From an uncultured Pseudomonadota bacterium (GTDB lineage: Bacteria > Babelota > Babeliae > Babelales > RVW-14): DNA of 64,000 nt. Positions 25,349 through 28,935 of this stretch are shown here, piece by piece (positions within the stretch are counted from its first letter, which is position 1; the number at the start of each line of letters is the position of its first letter). The notes beneath the pieces are model-generated. The model did no database searches and had not been told where the DNA came from. It was given only the letters and a program-made list of their open reading frames with translations. The position numbers and the translations under genes were made by a program. The stretch spans positions 28,244-92,243 of the forward strand of contig CAYMBP010000001.1 in assembly GCA_964388745.1 (NCBI GenBank), given 5' to 3'.

Positions 25349-27586
25349 TTATATCTTAGTCCACTCTAAGCTTCTTTGTAGTTTAAATGTCTCTTCCTTT
25401 TCAGGGTCAATACAAATGAGATGTATCCATCCGTTGCCAAAGAGCTTTTGTAACACTTCATGTTGTTGAATAATCTGGTCAATGCTTTTTTGTGGGGCAT
25501 AGACAATAACGGAGAGTCTCATGGGATTGTGATAGAGGTCTTTATCTGATTTATAAACAGATTGAAGTGGTAAGCCATGCATGAGATCGCTTGCATTGCC
25601 CTGCATAGTACCTATTTTGCCGGTGATATTTTTAGTAATTTTACTTCCACTGCCAAAGGCTACGTTATCAAGTGTTGAGAATAAATATTGGGCATTTATC
25701 CATTGTGCAACAATCATAGGAGCCGTTAATATGGTGGTAAGAATAGAAAGGTCTGCATCTTTTTGCCAATCATAAGAGTGTAAGAATGATCGACCTTCAA
25801 GGTTGATATCTTGAGTGAGTTGGCGTGGTCCAACAACAAAAGAGGCATTTTTTGCAAGACCCCATTCTGGACGAACTTGTGCCCAGTCTGAAGCTCGTGC
25901 AGCAGTGACTTTGTGCGCACGCTTCTTAGAAGTCTTTATATCCATTGCTTGAGTACGCCAGAGGCTATTTTCATTTCTAGCTTCTTGAAGATCTTGCTTT
26001 AATGCTGTAATCTGTTTAGTTTTTTCTTGAGTAAGCTCTGCGGTAAACAACTCTATTTCATCGGTAGTTGTATCATGTCTGGCAGCTACAAAGAGGGTAT
26101 TATTGGGGATGTTTATATTGTTTTTGCTTAACCCTTGTCTTACATCTTTTCTATTTAATATTGCGGCAAGAATGCGAGCATTTGGAGCACCATGATGTCC
26201 ACCACAGGCTCCGCAATCAAGCGCTGTTGCATAGGCATTGTTTTTTGTTGTGCTGCCATGACCACAAAAAATAACAAGTGGGGCAAAAAGTTCAGTGAGC
26301 CCCATCATGCGAAGGGCATTTTCACCATATGAGATTTGTTCTTCTAGCGATATTGTTGTAATGTTTGGAGTTAAGTTATAAGATGGAGCAAATGCTTTTT
26401 TTAGAGAAGATTGAATTTTTATTGTAATTTTTGGAGAGATACTTTTTAGTACCATTAAAAATCCATTTATAATACCAACAGCTTCAACAAGGCTAAAAGG
26501 TGTAGTAAAGGTATTTTTCATTGATTGGTAAATCTTTTTAAATGATTGTAGGCGTCTGTATCCTTTTTGACAAGACTGATATGAAAAATCTGGATCTTCG
26601 GTGATATGATGAGTAGGTTTTAAAAGAATTGGGCATGATATATGACGTTCACCTGTGATATTATTTTCAATACTAATTGGTAACCCAAAAAATCCTGCAA
26701 ACCCATATGTTTCATATGCTCCTTGAGCTTCAAGTGCTCGCCGAAACGGTTCAGAGCGGACATCAATGCAAAAGACAAGCTGAGCTTTTAAGTTGGTTAA
26801 GGGCTTTGCTTTTTTTAAAGGTATGATTTTTCTGAGTAAGTTTTCTTGATAGTCAGATTCACTTGTTGCAATATCATCACAGACTTTTTTTACGTGAGCC
26901 TGCTGTAATGCTTGTTGGTGCCACGCAAGAAGTTGATGTGCTTTTGGCCATAGAAGGCACGTGAGAATCAATCTAAATGCTACGTATTCGCATTGTGTTA
27001 CTGAGTATGAATAAGCAGCATGAACTTCATCCACCCAATTGGTACGATATTTAATATGGGCAGCCCACCCTGGAAGTGTTGTGAGCATGAGCGTTAAAAA
27101 TTGTTCCTGCTCTTCTGCGGGAATATGAAGATAGAGAAGCGCTTTAGAAATTATAGCTAAAGAATTTGAAGGAAGATTTTTGAGCCATTGCAATTTTTGA
27201 TTATTATTCTTATGAAGGTGTTTATCAAATGGTATAAGCGAAAGCATGCTGTGTAAAAAGCCTAGGTGTTTATTTGGCATATGAAGAGTTGACTGTCCCT
27301 CATCAAAAAAGACTTGAAGCCATTTGATGCTCTCGCGATTTATCTCGAGCATTTCTTTAGGAATCTCTTTTTGTTGAAAGTAGGCTTGGGCTTGGTTTAA
27401 AGCTTTTTCAAAGGGTAAGTCTTCAAATCCTGCAATAGGATTTACAGCGATAAGGTTTTTAAGCGGCCAAAATGGGGCGACTCTTGACCAACTAGTGATT
27501 AGAGCTGATTCAAGAAATTGGTTGTCATTACCAGGAGAAGTATCGCTCATGTGCGTTGGTCTGTTATTTTTATTTATGTTGTTCAT
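25349..27586 (-). CDS. dabA: DabA (DUF2309/UPF0753) subunit of a DAB inorganic-carbon pump
   Basis: 745 aa. Beta-carbonic-anhydrase-like 'FCIDVRSEPFRR' (C-x-D-x-R, nt 26756-26770). 'FCGHGSTTKNNAYATALDCGACGGHHGAPNARILAAILN'. Lies 11 nt downstream of a NuoL-like membrane gene. Confidence 0.8.
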   Translation of the reverse strand: MNNINKNNRPTHMSDTSPGNDNQFLESALITSWSRVAPFWPLKNLIAVNPIAGFEDLPFEKALNQAQAYFQQKEIPKEMLEINRESIKWLQVFFDEGQSTLHMPNKHLGFLHSMLSLIPFDKHLHKNNNQKLQWLKNLPSNSLAIISKALLYLHIPAEEQEQFLTLMLTTLPGWAAHIKYRTNWVDEVHAAYSYSVTQCEYVAFRLILTCLLWPKAHQLLAWHQQALQQAHVKKVCDDIATSESDYQENLLRKIIPLKKAKPLTNLKAQLVFCIDVRSEPFRRALEAQGAYETYGFAGFFGLPISIENNITGERHISCPILLKPTHHITEDPDFSYQSCQKGYRRLQSFKKIYQSMKNTFTTPFSLVEAVGIINGFLMVLKSISPKITIKIQSSLKKAFAPSYNLTPNITTISLEEQISYGENALRMMGLTELFAPLVIFCGHGSTTKNNAYATALDCGACGGHHGAPNARILAAILNRKDVRQGLSKNNINIPNNTLFVAARHDTTTDEIELFTAELTQEKTKQITALKQDLQEARNENSLWRTQAMDIKTSKKRAHKVTAARASDWAQVRPEWGLAKNASFVVGPRQLTQDINLEGRSFLHSYDWQKDADLSILTTILTAPMIVAQWINAQYLFSTLDNVAFGSGSKITKNITGKIGTMQGNASDLMHGLPLQSVYKSDKDLYHNPMRLSVIVYAPQKSIDQIIQQHEVLQKLFGNGWIHLICIDPEKEETFKLQRSLEWTKI

Positions 27587-27597
27587 GGCAATCCTTG

Positions 27598-28935
27598 TTA
27601 AAAATGGTAATGATTACGATGGGCAGTAACCGTTTTGGGGTCTGGTTGACTTGCATTCAGCATCCAAACATATGCTTTAAGTATCCAATGGGGGAGTACG
27701 CTTTTCTCTGATCTGCGTATTAAAAGAACTTTAAGCCATGCAACAGTTAAGAGTATCAACGCAATGATATGTACCATATTAAGTGGCTGCGGGTGGGACA
27801 TGCCAAGAGGTGCAAGTGCTTGTTCAATGAGGTGAACACTCACACCGTACAAGGTCCCCATAATTGATGTTGTGATAAATGCTAGAGGTATTTTAATAAG
27901 AGAGTTTCCTCGAACAATAGGAAGTGCAAATTGTGTACCGGCAATGAGAACGAGTGTAGTCAGAAAGGCCCTTGTATCACCAGTAAATAAATTTTTTTCA
28001 CTGGTGAGAGATAAAAAATAAATGCCACTTATACCACAAAGAAGAGCAATGAAAAAATGCGTGAATGATGGTGGCGTATCAAGGTCTAGACGTTTTTCTT
28101 GTGCTGCAGATCCTGAATCTAAAAATGCGTACGCTTTAAATAATCCATGCCAGCATAAATGAGCTACAGCAGCAGGAAAGAGTCCAAGTCCACATTGTGC
28201 AATCATAAAGCCCATTTGTCCCATGGTGGAACAGGCAAGCATTCGTTTGACGTCACATTGCATGAGCTTCCAGAGGGTACCTAGTAGTGCTGAAACAATA
28301 CCTACAATAAAAATTATGGTTAAGATTGTTGAGCTTTGAGCAATCATCAGAGAAAATCGGGCGAGTAAAAACCCCCCACCATTAACAAGCCCTGCGTGCA
28401 TAATGGCAGAAACTGGAGTTGGTGAATTGAGTGAACTTATAAGCCAGCGATGAAAGGGCCAGAGAGAAGATTGCGTCATCGCTGCAAGCACAATGAGTAT
28501 GCCGCTTGCAATTAACCATGGTATTTCTATATGGCTATGTGTTATTACCTGAATGGAAGTTTGTTGAGTTTTAAAAAAGAGCATGAGAAATGCACTACTT
28601 AAAAAGATAGAACCAAGGCAGAAATTTTTAAAAGCTAAAATAGATGATTGTCGTGCGGCTTCCCACTCTTTTTTATGGAGCATGAGACGGACTAAAATAA
28701 TGTTACTTATGCACCAAGAGAGTAACATAAGTAATAAGTGGTCAGCACTAACCATAATAGAGACAGAAAGCAAAAGTGTTATTAATTTGTAATAAAAGTT
28801 TTTTTGCTTTCTGTCTCCTTTTAAGTAGCGAGAAGCAAATGAAGCAACAGAAAGTGTTACAATGCCAACAAGCCCGATCATTACAAGGCTTAAATTGTCA
28901 ATGTGAAAATATTGATTTAGAATAAGCATTAGCAC
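27598..28935 (-). CDS. dabB: DabB (NuoL/MrpA-like proton-conducting membrane subunit)
   Basis: 445-aa polytopic membrane protein. 'WPFHRWLISSLNSPTPVSAIMHAGLVNGGGFLLARF' is the PF00361-type core. No other nuo or mrp genes are nearby. Confidence 0.75.
   Translation of the reverse strand: MLMLILNQYFHIDNLSLVMIGLVGIVTLSVASFASRYLKGDRKQKNFYYKLITLLLSVSIMVSADHLLLMLLSWCISNIILVRLMLHKKEWEAARQSSILAFKNFCLGSIFLSSAFLMLFFKTQQTSIQVITHSHIEIPWLIASGILIVLAAMTQSSLWPFHRWLISSLNSPTPVSAIMHAGLVNGGGFLLARFSLMIAQSSTILTIIFIVGIVSALLGTLWKLMQCDVKRMLACSTMGQMGFMIAQCGLGLFPAAVAHLCWHGLFKAYAFLDSGSAAQEKRLDLDTPPSFTHFFIALLCGISGIYFLSLTSEKNLFTGDTRAFLTTLVLIAGTQFALPIVRGNSLIKIPLAFITTSIMGTLYGVSVHLIEQALAPLGMSHPQPLNMVHIIALILLTVAWLKVLLIRRSEKSVLPHWILKAYVWMLNASQPDPKTVTAHRNHYHF

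What the first reader, a model, noticed from the sequence alone, without database searches (positions are those of the whole stretch)
25349..28935. Intact DabB-DabA inorganic-carbon pump in an otherwise host-dependent-looking genome
The pair has two parts. One is a NuoL/MrpA-like membrane protein with no other complex I or Mrp genes nearby. The other is a DUF2309 protein with a beta-carbonic-anhydrase-like C-x-D-x-R ('FCIDVRSE') and 'GHGS...LDCGACGGHHG'. This is the signature of DAB ('DABs accumulate bicarbonate') energy-coupled CO2 hydration modules. These modules are best known from chemoautotrophs, although they are also present in some pathogens. No carboxysome, RuBisCO or other autotrophy gene is in the window. 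The operon is flanked on both sides by pseudogenes yet is itself intact, which implies selection for it. It may supply bicarbonate for anaplerotic or biosynthetic carboxylations, or act in pH homeostasis inside a host vacuole.
Basis: partly seen in the sequence, partly recalled or inferred. Interest (0 to 1): 0.6.

Follow-up and report, generated by a model that had tools for sequence, protein, structure and literature searches.

The report
Intact DabBA CO2 pump in Dependentiae
The two genes are a complete DAB-type, membrane-energised CO2-to-bicarbonate converter; the system is already known, but here it sits, still intact between decayed genes, in a protist-dependent TM6/Dependentiae bacterium and carries a shortened membrane subunit, so what the bicarbonate is used for is unclear.

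Summary
dabB (27598-28929, minus strand, 443 aa) and dabA (25349-27586, 745 aa) form an 11-nt-spaced operon.

- **DabA:** it matches Pfam DabA (E=2e-223) and the solved H. neapolitanus DabA2 (9rd0, E=5e-111). All three Zn ligands, the Asp-Arg dyad, the active-site Leu, the finger Glu and the three DAB-specific motifs are present.
- **DabB:** it keeps all seven proton-path residues whose mutation impairs DAB2. It lacks TM1-2 and replaces the Lys235/Asp185 ion pair with Gln/Ser. This is the norm for a large clade of 441-448 aa homologues, not a truncation.
- **Flanks:** both flanking genes are decayed. One is an ANT-type nucleotidyltransferase remnant; the other is a probable GNAT remnant.
- **Host:** it is Dependentiae (TM6), not a chlamydia.
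- **Origin:** the closest DABs are in MAGs labelled Chlamydiota and Rickettsiaceae (66-73% identity). Other Dependentiae DABs are only 40-49% identical, which suggests horizontal spread among intracellular bacteria.
- **Missing companions:** the divergent LysR regulator and the DUF6671 gene usual for this clade are absent here.

Verdict: a new member of a known family. Its physiological role is open, because published TM6 genomes lack the classical bicarbonate-consuming pathways.

The parts
27598..28929 (-). dabB: 443-aa NuoL-like membrane subunit of the DAB complex. It is the short form, with about 13 TM helices corresponding to TM3-TM15 of DabB2. The ORF as listed runs to a GTG at 28935.
   Evidence: Pfam PF00361 and PF00662. 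Best PDB match is DabB2, 9rd0_B, E=5.4e-36. 100% identical to P0001 (443 aa), and full-length coverage by 441-448-aa homologues. Proton-path residues S174, H178, K228, S234, H257, H261 and K265 are conserved; Q153/S107 replace K235/D185. AlphaFold2 model has pLDDT 83 and pTM 0.84, and its best folds are NuoL.
25349..27586 (-). dabA: 745-aa cytoplasmic beta-carbonic-anhydrase-like subunit with a membrane-inserting finger/elbow motif.
   Evidence: Pfam PF10070, E=2.1e-223. 9rd0_A DabA2, E=5.3e-111. C273, D275, R277, S278, E368, H443, C458, H504, D509, W568 and L577 are conserved, nine of them in 35/35 and S278 and H504 in 34/35 aligned DabAs. Motifs GFAGFFG, NNAYATALDCGACGG and DWAQVRPEWGL are present (motif definitions).
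27587..27597 (-). 11-nt dabB-dabA spacer carrying the AAGGA ribosome-binding site of dabA; an operon junction.
   Evidence: Sequence read directly.
28930..29037 (-). 108-nt region upstream of dabB holding its GAGGT ribosome-binding site and, presumably, the promoter. In most relatives a divergent lysR gene starts here; none is present in the window.
   Evidence: Sequence. No LysR similarity anywhere in the window (tblastn E>=2). The consensus promoter scan is not above chance.
29038..29472 (-). Remnant of an ANT(9)/AadA-type aminoglycoside nucleotidyltransferase gene, with an in-frame stop and 3' truncation: the upstream flanking pseudogene.
   Evidence: NCBIfam ANT_9, E=1.2e-19, covering only positions 2-90 of 249. 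Translation shows a stop after codon 114, then 29 more in-frame codons and a second stop. Pfam Polbeta/NTP_transf_2.
25002..25348 (-). Probable GNAT acetyltransferase remnant, with a frameshift in the A-run after its ATG and a degenerate C-terminal half: the downstream flanking pseudogene (tentative).
   Evidence: Three-frame translation. Pfam Acetyltransf_3, E=0.0012, 20 bits against a cut-off of 25.4, positions 1-64 of 138.

Best explanation
The pair encodes a functional two-subunit DAB complex (DAB2/MpsAB-like, without DabC). This is an energy-coupled, one-way carbonic anhydrase.

**Mechanism, inferred from the solved DAB2 and DAB1 structures.** CO2 that has diffused into the cell reaches a deeply buried Cys2-His zinc site in DabA. 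Its hydration to bicarbonate is gated by cation (most likely proton) flow through DabB, along the conserved Ser/His/Lys chain of TM8-TM11 and the Glu of the DabA finger helix inserted into DabB. Bicarbonate is then released into, and trapped in, the cytoplasm.

**Energy source, inferred.** In this Dependentiae host, the membrane gradient would have to be made by the F-type ATPase working in reverse on host-derived ATP; atpA and atpH are in the window.

**Evolutionary setting.** The genes belong to a distinct DabB clade in which Gln replaces the TM7 Lys. In this subclade TM1-2 are also missing. The clade circulates by horizontal transfer among protist-associated intracellular bacteria. The copy in the window has lost the LysR regulator and the DUF6671 gene that usually accompany it, so it is probably expressed constitutively.

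**What is shown and what is not.** Shown: family membership, conservation of every tested catalytic and coupling residue, intactness, and the phyletic pattern. Inferred: activity, the coupling ion, the direction of operation, and what consumes the bicarbonate.
For: - **DabA family match:** Pfam DabA E=2e-223 and DabA2 of PDB 9rd0 E=5e-111.
- **DabA residues:** the Zn ligands, Asp-Arg dyad, Ser, His/Asp water-relay residues, Leu658 equivalent, finger Glu444 equivalent and Trp of the DW...RPEWGL motif are all conserved, nine of the eleven in 35/35 and two in 34/35 aligned DabAs. Their functional importance is given by mutagenesis and structures.
- **DabB residues:** the equivalents of S256, H260, K310, S316, H339, H343 and K347 are invariant in 27/27 clade members and 44/44 other DabBs.
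- **DabB model:** confident (pLDDT 83) and NuoL-like.
- **Operon layout:** 11-nt spacer and ribosome-binding sites before both genes.
- **Length:** both genes have the same length as hundreds of homologues.
- **Selection:** dN 0.19-0.25 with saturated dS versus L075 and L001, while both neighbours are decayed.
- **Loss of the ion pair is tolerated:** a staphylococcal plasmid MpsA-like DabB also lacks the Lys/Asp pair. K235A and D185A mutants of DAB2 still complement, at reduced yield.
- **Precedent:** MpsAB and DAB2 rescue carbonic-anhydrase-free E. coli.
- **Host identity:** PyrG and PriA nearest named relatives are Dependentiae/Babeliales.
- **Gradient:** TM6 bacteria keep an ATP synthase and a H+-pyrophosphatase to maintain a gradient.
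- **Transfer:** in a neighbour-joining tree of concatenated DabA+DabB, the window groups with L075 and L001 at 100% bootstrap and away from the Dependentiae loci L020 and L023.
Against: - I found no experimental test of any member of this Gln-type or short-DabB clade.
- DabB lacks TM1-2 and the Lys235/Asp185 pair.
- The pair scores below the curated cut-offs of the two DabB-like NCBIfam models (251.6 vs 377 and 212.6 vs 380).
- The LysR and DUF6671 partners, conserved in 22 and 16 of about 29 relatives, are absent.
- Published TM6 genomes lack the classical bicarbonate consumers and an electron transport chain, so the benefit of spending the gradient on bicarbonate is unexplained.
- Only 64 kb of the genome could be inspected.
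- The coupling ion is disputed in the family: H+ for DAB2, Na+ proposed for MpsAB.
Confidence: 0.8

Rival explanations
1. The complex is active, but its physiological job is ion, pH or membrane-potential homeostasis rather than supplying bicarbonate to carboxylases. [quoted passage not shown] The Gln-for-Lys, 13-TM DabB would mark a mechanistically different subclass.
For: - MpsAB was named as a membrane-potential-generating system and was proposed to be a Na+/bicarbonate symporter.
- The TM7 Lys/Asp pair that modulates proton transfer in NuoL and DabB2 is replaced in 27/27 clade members.
- TM6 bacteria lack an electron transport chain and the classical bicarbonate sinks.
Against: - All seven proton-path residues and the finger Glu are kept.
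- Both structural studies argue that the reverse reaction is blocked and that catalysis is strictly coupled to inward proton flow.
- DAB2 did not rescue a Na+-transporter-deficient strain under sodium stress and kept full activity without sodium.
- No ion-specificity determinant can be read from the sequence.
Confidence: 0.13
2. The genes are a horizontally acquired passenger that is no longer used and has simply not yet decayed. The loss of its LysR regulator and DUF6671 partner would be the first steps of erosion in a decaying accessory region.
For: - It lies in an accessory stretch (21855-33082) between psd and tRNA-Ser, with two decayed neighbours.
- lysR and DUF6671 are absent.
- dabA appears split in two relatives, L024 and L025, so decay does occur in this clade.
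Against: - 3.6 kb of reading frame has no stop or frameshift.
- Every functional residue is kept.
- Base composition and GC3 equal those of housekeeping genes, so this is not a recent arrival.
- dN is far below dS.
- Other obligate intracellular carriers (Holospora, two Dependentiae MAGs) also keep dabBA without lysR.
Confidence: 0.05
3. dabB is a leftover of a respiratory complex I or Mrp antiporter, and dabA is an unrelated neighbour.
For: DabB matches NuoL, MrpA and ND5 models and structures.
Against: - No other Nuo or Mrp gene is in the window.
- The best PDB match is DabB2, not NuoL.
- The NuoL TM12 Lys399/Asp400 have no counterpart.
- The dabB-dabA pairing is conserved in every complete related locus.
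Confidence: 0.01

Closest known systems
DAB2 (DabA2/DabB2) of Halothiobacillus neapolitanus, PDB 9rd0/9rd8/9rd9 (Desmarais et al. 2019; Lo et al. 2026)
   Same: - Two-gene dabB-dabA operon without dabC.
- Same Zn site (Cys2His plus water), Asp-Arg dyad, Leu in place of the bicarbonate-stabilising Gln, finger Glu, and the three DAB motifs.
- Same Ser/His/Lys proton path in DabB.
   Different: - Only about 30% (DabA) and about 27% (DabB) identity to a Halothiobacillaceae homologue.
- DabB is 443 aa rather than 551 aa. It lacks TM1-2 and the 499-527 axial-helix region and has its own conserved C-terminal motif (MLNASQP..HRN.Y.F).
- Lys235/Asp185 are replaced by Gln/Ser.
- DabA is 745 aa rather than 827 aa.
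- The host is a non-autotrophic parasite with no carboxysome genes in the window.
MpsAB of Staphylococcus aureus (Fan et al. 2019) and the MpsAB-like pair on a S. pettenkoferi plasmid (L079)
   Same: - Found in a heterotroph; two genes.
- The best NCBIfam model for the window DabB is the Bacillus/Staphylococcus-type PRK08601.
- Shared absence of the TM7 Lys/Asp pair and a related C-terminal motif.
   Different: - 26% (DabB) and 35% (DabA) identity.
- The staphylococcal protein keeps TM1-2 (492 aa) and has Pro, not Gln, at the Lys position.
- MpsB is about 100 aa longer.
DAB homologues noted in Legionella pneumophila and other pathogens (Desmarais preprint; Fan et al. 2019)
   Same: Same Gln-type clade as the Legionella jamestowniensis locus L025 (47% DabA identity). 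Intracellular, amoeba-associated lifestyle.
   Different: - The Legionella DabB still has two N-terminal hydrophobic helices.
- It keeps lysR and DUF6671.
- Legionella also has several carbonic anhydrases. Whether this genome has any is unknown.
DAB1 (DabABC) of Thermocrinis albus / H. neapolitanus (Phillips et al. 2026)
   Same: Same catalytic and coupling motifs.
   Different: - DAB1 needs a third membrane subunit, DabC, and no such gene adjoins the pair here.
- DabA1 is much longer (1046 aa in H. neapolitanus).
Cyanobacterial NDH-1 CO2-uptake modules (NdhF3/D3/CupA, NdhF4/D4/CupB)
   Same: Same concept of a vectorial carbonic anhydrase attached to an antiporter-like subunit of the PF00361 family.
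   Different: These are redox-coupled, part of a large NDH-1 complex, with unrelated Cup proteins instead of DabA.

Membership tests
DAB (DabA/DabB) energy-coupled CO2 hydration complex | DabA subunit with the PF10070 (DUF2309) domain over its full length | tested here: met
   E=2.1e-223, 744 bits against a cut-off of 25; profile positions 107-747 of 747 in the best stretch plus an N-terminal stretch.
DAB (DabA/DabB) energy-coupled CO2 hydration complex | Beta-carbonic-anhydrase-type Zn ligands (C351, H524, C539 of DabA2) and the D353-R355 dyad | tested here: met
   C273, H443, C458, D275 and R277 align with them and are invariant in 35/35 DabAs.
DAB (DabA/DabB) energy-coupled CO2 hydration complex | Leu in place of the bicarbonate-stabilising Gln/His (L658), and the DAB-specific motifs GI(A/G)GFFG, NN..Y...LDCGACGG and DW...RPEWGL | tested here: met
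   GFAGFFG, NNAYATALDCGACGG and DWAQVRPEWGL are present; L577 and W568 are invariant.
DAB (DabA/DabB) energy-coupled CO2 hydration complex | Membrane-inserting finger/elbow motif of DabA with the conserved Glu (E444) | tested here: met
   E368, in the hydrophobic segment FSLVEAVGIINGFLMVL, aligns with E444 and is invariant in 35/35.
DAB (DabA/DabB) energy-coupled CO2 hydration complex | Adjacent, co-oriented PF00361 DabB gene | tested here: met
   dabB ends 11 nt before dabA. The best solved relative is DabB2.
DAB (DabA/DabB) energy-coupled CO2 hydration complex | DabB proton-path residues required for DAB2 activity (S256, H260, K310, S316, H339, H343, K347) | tested here: met
   S174, H178, K228, S234, H257, H261 and K265 are all conserved.
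DAB (DabA/DabB) energy-coupled CO2 hydration complex | TM7/TM6 ion pair Lys235/Asp185 (NuoL K229/D178), reported as at least 80% conserved among DabB2 homologues | tested here: not met
   Q153/S107 here. Gln in 27/27 clade members, against Lys/Arg (44/44) plus an acidic partner (Asp in 42, Glu in 1; Asn in 1) in the other DabBs. This is not an absolute family requirement: alanine mutants still complement, and a staphylococcal MpsA-like protein lacks the pair.
DAB (DabA/DabB) energy-coupled CO2 hydration complex | 15-TM DabB architecture as in DabB2 | tested here: not met
   The alignment starts at DabB2 residue 86 / NuoL residue 81 (TM3). The AlphaFold2 model has about 13 TM helices. The upstream frame is closed by stops. 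The 441-448 aa length is the norm in the subclade.
DAB (DabA/DabB) energy-coupled CO2 hydration complex | Rescue of carbonic-anhydrase-free E. coli in air; uncoupler-sensitive inorganic-carbon uptake; Zn content; DabA-DabB complex formation | not testable with these tools
   Needs experiments. No published test of a member of this clade was found.
DAB1 subtype (DabABC) | Small third membrane subunit DabC encoded with dabA and dabB | tested here: not met
   No small membrane-protein ORF of at least 50 aa adjoins the pair; the flanks are the ANT and GNAT remnants. The pair is filed with the two-gene DAB2/MpsAB type.
Respiratory complex I / Mrp antiporter | Other Nuo or Mrp subunit genes alongside the NuoL/MrpA-like gene; NuoL TM12 Lys399/Asp400 | tested here: not met
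   None in the 64-kb window. There is no counterpart of K399/D400.

The most novel reading that the evidence does not exclude

- It may instead serve one of the few bicarbonate-dependent reactions that survive genome reduction. The best lead is threonylcarbamoyl-AMP synthesis by Sua5/TsaC for tRNA t6A. The sua5 gene sits directly beside dabBA in five clade members, including another Dependentiae MAG.
- Alternatively it may work in gradient or pH management.
- On either reading, the Gln-type, 13-TM DabB together with DUF6671 would define a mechanistically distinct DAB subclass that spreads horizontally among intracellular bacteria of protists.
Probability: 0.2. Interest if true: 0.65.

Novelty: new member of a known kind. 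Interest (0 to 1): 0.4.

Why it matters
DAB complexes are studied mainly as parts of the CO2-concentrating mechanisms of autotrophs. Their role in heterotrophs is an acknowledged open question.

- An intact, selectively maintained copy in an ATP-scavenging, metabolically minimal Dependentiae parasite is a stringent natural test case. The short list of bicarbonate-requiring reactions left in such a genome should point to what the pump is for.
- The clade it belongs to shows that DabB can work, or at least is conserved, without TM1-2 and without the Lys/Asp pair. That is useful for mechanistic work and for engineering minimal DABs.
- The family, its chemistry and its presence in pathogens are already known, so this is an extension rather than a discovery.

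Tried and rejected
1. **dabB as a 5'-truncated pseudogene.** I first suspected this because NCBIfam PRK08601 matched only positions 67-498 and the score was below the cut-off. I rejected it: more than 100 homologues of 441-448 aa cover 95-100% of the protein, and no N-terminal fragment lies upstream.
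2. **Window as chlamydial.** I first called the window chlamydial from a Pfam HC2 hit. I rejected this after the PyrG and PriA searches gave only Dependentiae/Babeliales names among their top 120 hits. The HC2-like protein is Lys/Ala-rich and not diagnostic.
3. **tRNA-Ser-linked island.** No repeat of the tRNA 3' end and no meaningful direct repeats were found, so island boundaries were not demonstrated.
4. **Recent transfer.** GC and GC3 of dabBA equal those of host genes.
5. **Plasmid-borne close relatives.** 126 plasmids carry DabA homologues, but the best are only about 37% identical.
6. **Source contig.** Exact look-ups of DabA and P0001 found no record, and cluster look-up gave no names. 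The rest of the genome could therefore not be searched for carbonic anhydrases or carboxylases.
7. **Promoter and terminator scans.** Not above chance.
8. **Foldseek against the PDB.** It returned NuoL chains and not 9rd0, probably because that library copy predates the release of 9rd0. The sequence search did find 9rd0.
9. **Literature.** Searches linking DAB or DUF2309 to chlamydiae or Dependentiae found nothing relevant.
10. **Not checked.** I did not check whether the experimentally tested V. cholerae and B. anthracis DABs fall in the Gln-type clade.

Full report
**What is there.** On the minus strand, an ORF of 445 aa (27598-28935, GTG) is followed after 11 nt by an ORF of 745 aa (25349-27586).

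- The second ORF is a full-length DabA: Pfam PF10070, E=2.1e-223.
- The first ORF carries PF00361 and PF00662, the NuoL/MrpA-type membrane domain.
- The true dabB start is most likely the ATG at 28929. A GAGGT lies 8 nt upstream of it, whereas it is only 2 nt from the GTG. The resulting 443-aa protein is identical to database protein P0001.
- dabA has an AAGGA in the 11-nt spacer.

**Is DabA a real DabA?** The PDB now holds the cryo-EM structure of H. neapolitanus DAB2 (9rd0/9rd8/9rd9), and the window protein matches DabA2 at E=5.3e-111. From that alignment:

| DabA2 residue | Window residue | Role |
|---|---|---|
| C351, H524, C539 | C273, H443, C458 | Zn ligands |
| D353-R355 | D275-R277 | dyad |
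| S356, H585, D590 | S278, H504, D509 | water relay |
| L658 | L577 | replaces the bicarbonate-stabilising Gln |
| E444 | E368 | finger/elbow Glu |

- All of these are invariant, or nearly so, in a 35-sequence DabA alignment that spans the family.
- The three DAB-specific motifs described for DAB1 and DAB2 are present as GFAGFFG, NNAYATALDCGACGG and DWAQVRPEWGL.
- The functional weight of these residues comes from the mutagenesis and structures of Lo et al. and Phillips et al..

**Is DabB intact?** NCBIfam PRK08601 (510 positions) was matched only from position 67, and below its cut-off. DabB2 aligns from its residue 86 and NuoL from residue 81. The first two transmembrane helices are therefore absent.

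- This is not a truncation in this genome.
- More than 100 database homologues of 441-448 aa cover the whole protein at 56-73% identity.
- An AlphaFold2 model built on 33 of them is confident (pLDDT 83, pTM 0.84). It has about 13 TM helices, which by homology correspond to TM3-TM15, and its best solved folds are NuoL chains.
- Removing two helices keeps the membrane orientation (inference).

**Conservation in DabB.** I aligned the DabBs of 71 related loci together with E. coli NuoL and a DabB2 fragment.

- The seven proton-path residues whose alanine substitution impaired DAB2 (S256, H260, K310, S316, H339, H343, K347) are invariant everywhere. In the window they are S174, H178, K228, S234, H257, H261 and K265.
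- The regulatory ion pair Lys235/Asp185 (NuoL K229/D178) differs. The 44 other DabBs all have Lys or Arg, with an acidic partner in 43 (Asp in 42, Glu in 1, Asn in 1). All 27 members of the window's clade have Gln and a non-acidic partner; the window has Q153/S107.
- This does not argue against function. K235A and D185A variants still complement at 30-60% lower yield. A staphylococcal plasmid MpsA-like DabB also lacks the pair, with Pro at the Lys position.
- The Gln-type clade is wider than the short form. Its members in Legionella jamestowniensis and Fibrisoma limi still carry two N-terminal hydrophobic helices.

**Surroundings.**
- Upstream of dabB lies the remnant of an ANT(9)/AadA-type nucleotidyltransferase. 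NCBIfam positions 2-90 of 249 are matched. There is an in-frame stop after codon 114, then 29 further in-frame codons and the end.
- Directly downstream of dabA an ATG is followed by a run of seven A. One extra A would restore a typical GNAT N-terminus (MKKNFTLKKIATPRLIIRP...). Only the first 64 of 138 Acetyltransf_3 positions are recognisable, at E=0.0012, which is below threshold. This second pseudogene is plausible but not proven.
- The Pfam-scanned ORFs of the window (all of at least 150 aa, plus shorter ones next to the pair) include no carbonic anhydrase, RuBisCO, carboxysome, complex I or Mrp gene.
- The pair lies in an accessory stretch between psd and a tRNA-Ser gene, but I found no att-like repeat.
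- The GC and GC3 of dabBA equal those of housekeeping genes.

**Who is the host?** A Pfam HC2 hit first suggested a chlamydia. That was wrong. The nearest named relatives are all Candidatus Dependentiae/Babeliales, both for PyrG (61-63% identity) and for PriA (47-49%), and no chlamydial name appears in either top 120. Dependentiae (TM6) are protist-dependent. [quoted passage not shown] They keep ATP/ADP translocases, an ATP synthase and a H+-pyrophosphatase to maintain a proton gradient. The window contains atpA and atpH.

**Relatives and origin.** Related loci fall into two sharply separated groups by DabB score, 327-703 bits against 100-165 bits.

- The near group comprises MAGs labelled Alpha- and Gammaproteobacteria, Coxiellaceae, Rickettsiales, Francisellaceae, Dependentiae, Chlamydiota and Simkaniaceae, together with Holospora undulata, Legionella jamestowniensis and Fibrisoma limi.
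- In a neighbour-joining tree of concatenated DabA+DabB, the window groups at 100% bootstrap with a Chlamydiota-labelled MAG (L075) and a Rickettsiaceae-labelled MAG (L001). Identity to them is 66-73%. Identity to the DABs of two other Dependentiae MAGs is 40-49%.
- L001 and L075 share 76-77% identity in DabA and DabB but only 41% in PheS.
- This discordance points to horizontal transfer among intracellular bacteria. The caveats are that the MAG labels are as deposited and the tree is a distance tree.
- dN is 0.19-0.25 with dS saturated (at least 2) against L075 and L001. That fits long-term purifying selection, although it cannot be assigned to the terminal branch.

**What the window copy lacks.**
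- In 22 of about 29 clade loci, a LysR-family gene is transcribed divergently from just upstream of dabB. In 16, a DUF6671 gene overlaps or abuts the end of dabA.
- The window has no trace of either.
- Holospora and the two other Dependentiae loci also lack lysR. Loss of the regulator seems to accompany obligate intracellular life (inference).
- The ANT gene is cut off just where the dabB upstream region begins. This fits a deletion that removed lysR and the 3' part of ANT (inference).

**How it most likely works.** By homology with DAB2 and DAB1, CO2 enters a buried Zn site in DabA through a gated hydrophobic tunnel. Hydration proceeds only when cation flow through DabB remodels the site. Bicarbonate then leaves to the cytoplasm, and the reverse reaction is blocked. 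All residues implicated are present here. Activity, coupling ion and direction are inferred, not shown. In a host without a respiratory chain, the gradient would be paid for with imported ATP (inference).

**What the bicarbonate is for.** This is the open point. If this genome resembles published TM6 genomes, the usual consumers are missing.

- One lead seen in relatives: sua5/tsaC follows DUF6671 in L008, L009 and L018. It follows dabA directly in the Dependentiae MAG L023, and it lies between lysR and dabB in L005. Its product makes threonylcarbamoyl-AMP and, to my knowledge, uses bicarbonate or CO2.
- The window has LpxC, LptD and BamD-like genes. Lipid A synthesis, and with it some acyl-ACP supply, may therefore persist in this lineage, which would keep acetyl-CoA carboxylase in play. 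This could not be checked.

**Comparison and novelty.** This is a member of the DAB family of the two-gene DAB2/MpsAB type. It is not DAB1, since there is no dabC, and not a complex I or Mrp remnant. DAB homologues in heterotrophs and pathogens, including Legionella pneumophila, were already noted in 2018-2019. I found no paper on DAB in Dependentiae or chlamydiae, and no description or test of the Gln-type or short DabB clade. I rate it a new member of a known kind, with variant features worth a mechanistic look. Interest is 0.4.

Noticed in passing
L001 13565-14443; also L002, L003, L005-L010, L013, L018, L019, L021, L024, L025, L077 (downstream of dabA); Microbacterium, Promicromonospora and sphingomonad loci such as L046 12750-13724: A DUF6671 gene (PF20376, about 290 aa, Cys-rich C-terminal ribbon) overlaps or abuts the end of dabA in 16 clade loci. 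It also accompanies distant actinobacterial and sphingomonad DABs. It may be an undescribed third component or accessory factor of many DAB systems. It is absent from the window.
   Followed up: partly
L008 12992-13966, L009 13030-13986, L018 12985-13947, L023 12132-13157, L005 7478-8431, L042 6143-7555: sua5/tsaC (threonylcarbamoyl-AMP synthase, PF01300+PF03481) lies directly beside dabBA in five Gln-type loci from differently labelled lineages, including a Dependentiae MAG, and near the DAB of Promicromonospora. This suggests a link between DAB and t6A synthesis.
   Followed up: partly
L001, L075, L076, L077 and 18 other loci, immediately upstream of dabB on the opposite strand: A dedicated LysR-family regulator (about 282 aa) is divergently transcribed from dabB in most of the clade, and a more distant version occurs in sphingomonads. 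It is missing in the window, Holospora and two Dependentiae MAGs.
   Followed up: yes
window 9533-10066 (-): A 177-aa Lys/Ala-rich protein matches Pfam HC2 (the chlamydial histone H1-like protein, E=1.5e-16) in what is otherwise a Dependentiae genome. This is either compositional similarity or a shared or transferred nucleoid protein. It misled the first taxonomic call.
   Followed up: partly
window 30284-32797 (-): An 837-aa protein with a C-terminal bacterial EndoU nuclease domain (E=2.7e-08) and a long coiled-coil-like, Glu/Lys-rich N-terminal part. It is a candidate secreted toxin or effector in the same accessory stretch as dabBA.
   Followed up: no
window 17847-20066 (-): A 739-aa protein with two tandem D-Ala-D-Ala ligase modules (both Ddl_N and Ddl_C matched twice). 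This is an unusual Ddl-Ddl fusion.
   Followed up: no
window 21855-22655 (-), 23830-24795 (-), 29447-30208 (-): Three intact ORFs without a family assignment in the accessory region. One is a Cys-rich 266-aa protein with a signal-like N-terminus, one a 321-aa protein with a hydrophobic N-terminus, and one a 253-aa protein overlapping the start of the ANT remnant. An ankyrin-repeat protein lies at 1442-2941.
   Followed up: no
L025 9752-12192 (Legionella jamestowniensis) and L024 9902-12141: dabA is split into two overlapping ORFs in these two relatives. This is either a frameshift (decay) or a sequencing error.
   Followed up: no
L079 (Staphylococcus pettenkoferi plasmid NZ_CP066063.1, 16372-24444): An mpsAB-like dabB-dabA pair sits between two IS6 transposase genes on a mobilizable plasmid. 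126 plasmids in PLSDB carry DabA homologues (many Phaeobacter, Leisingera and haloarchaea), which shows that DABs are commonly mobile.
   Followed up: partly
window 33083-33175 (-): tRNA-Ser(CGA) bounds the accessory stretch that contains dabBA. No repeat of its 3' end was found within the window.
   Followed up: yes
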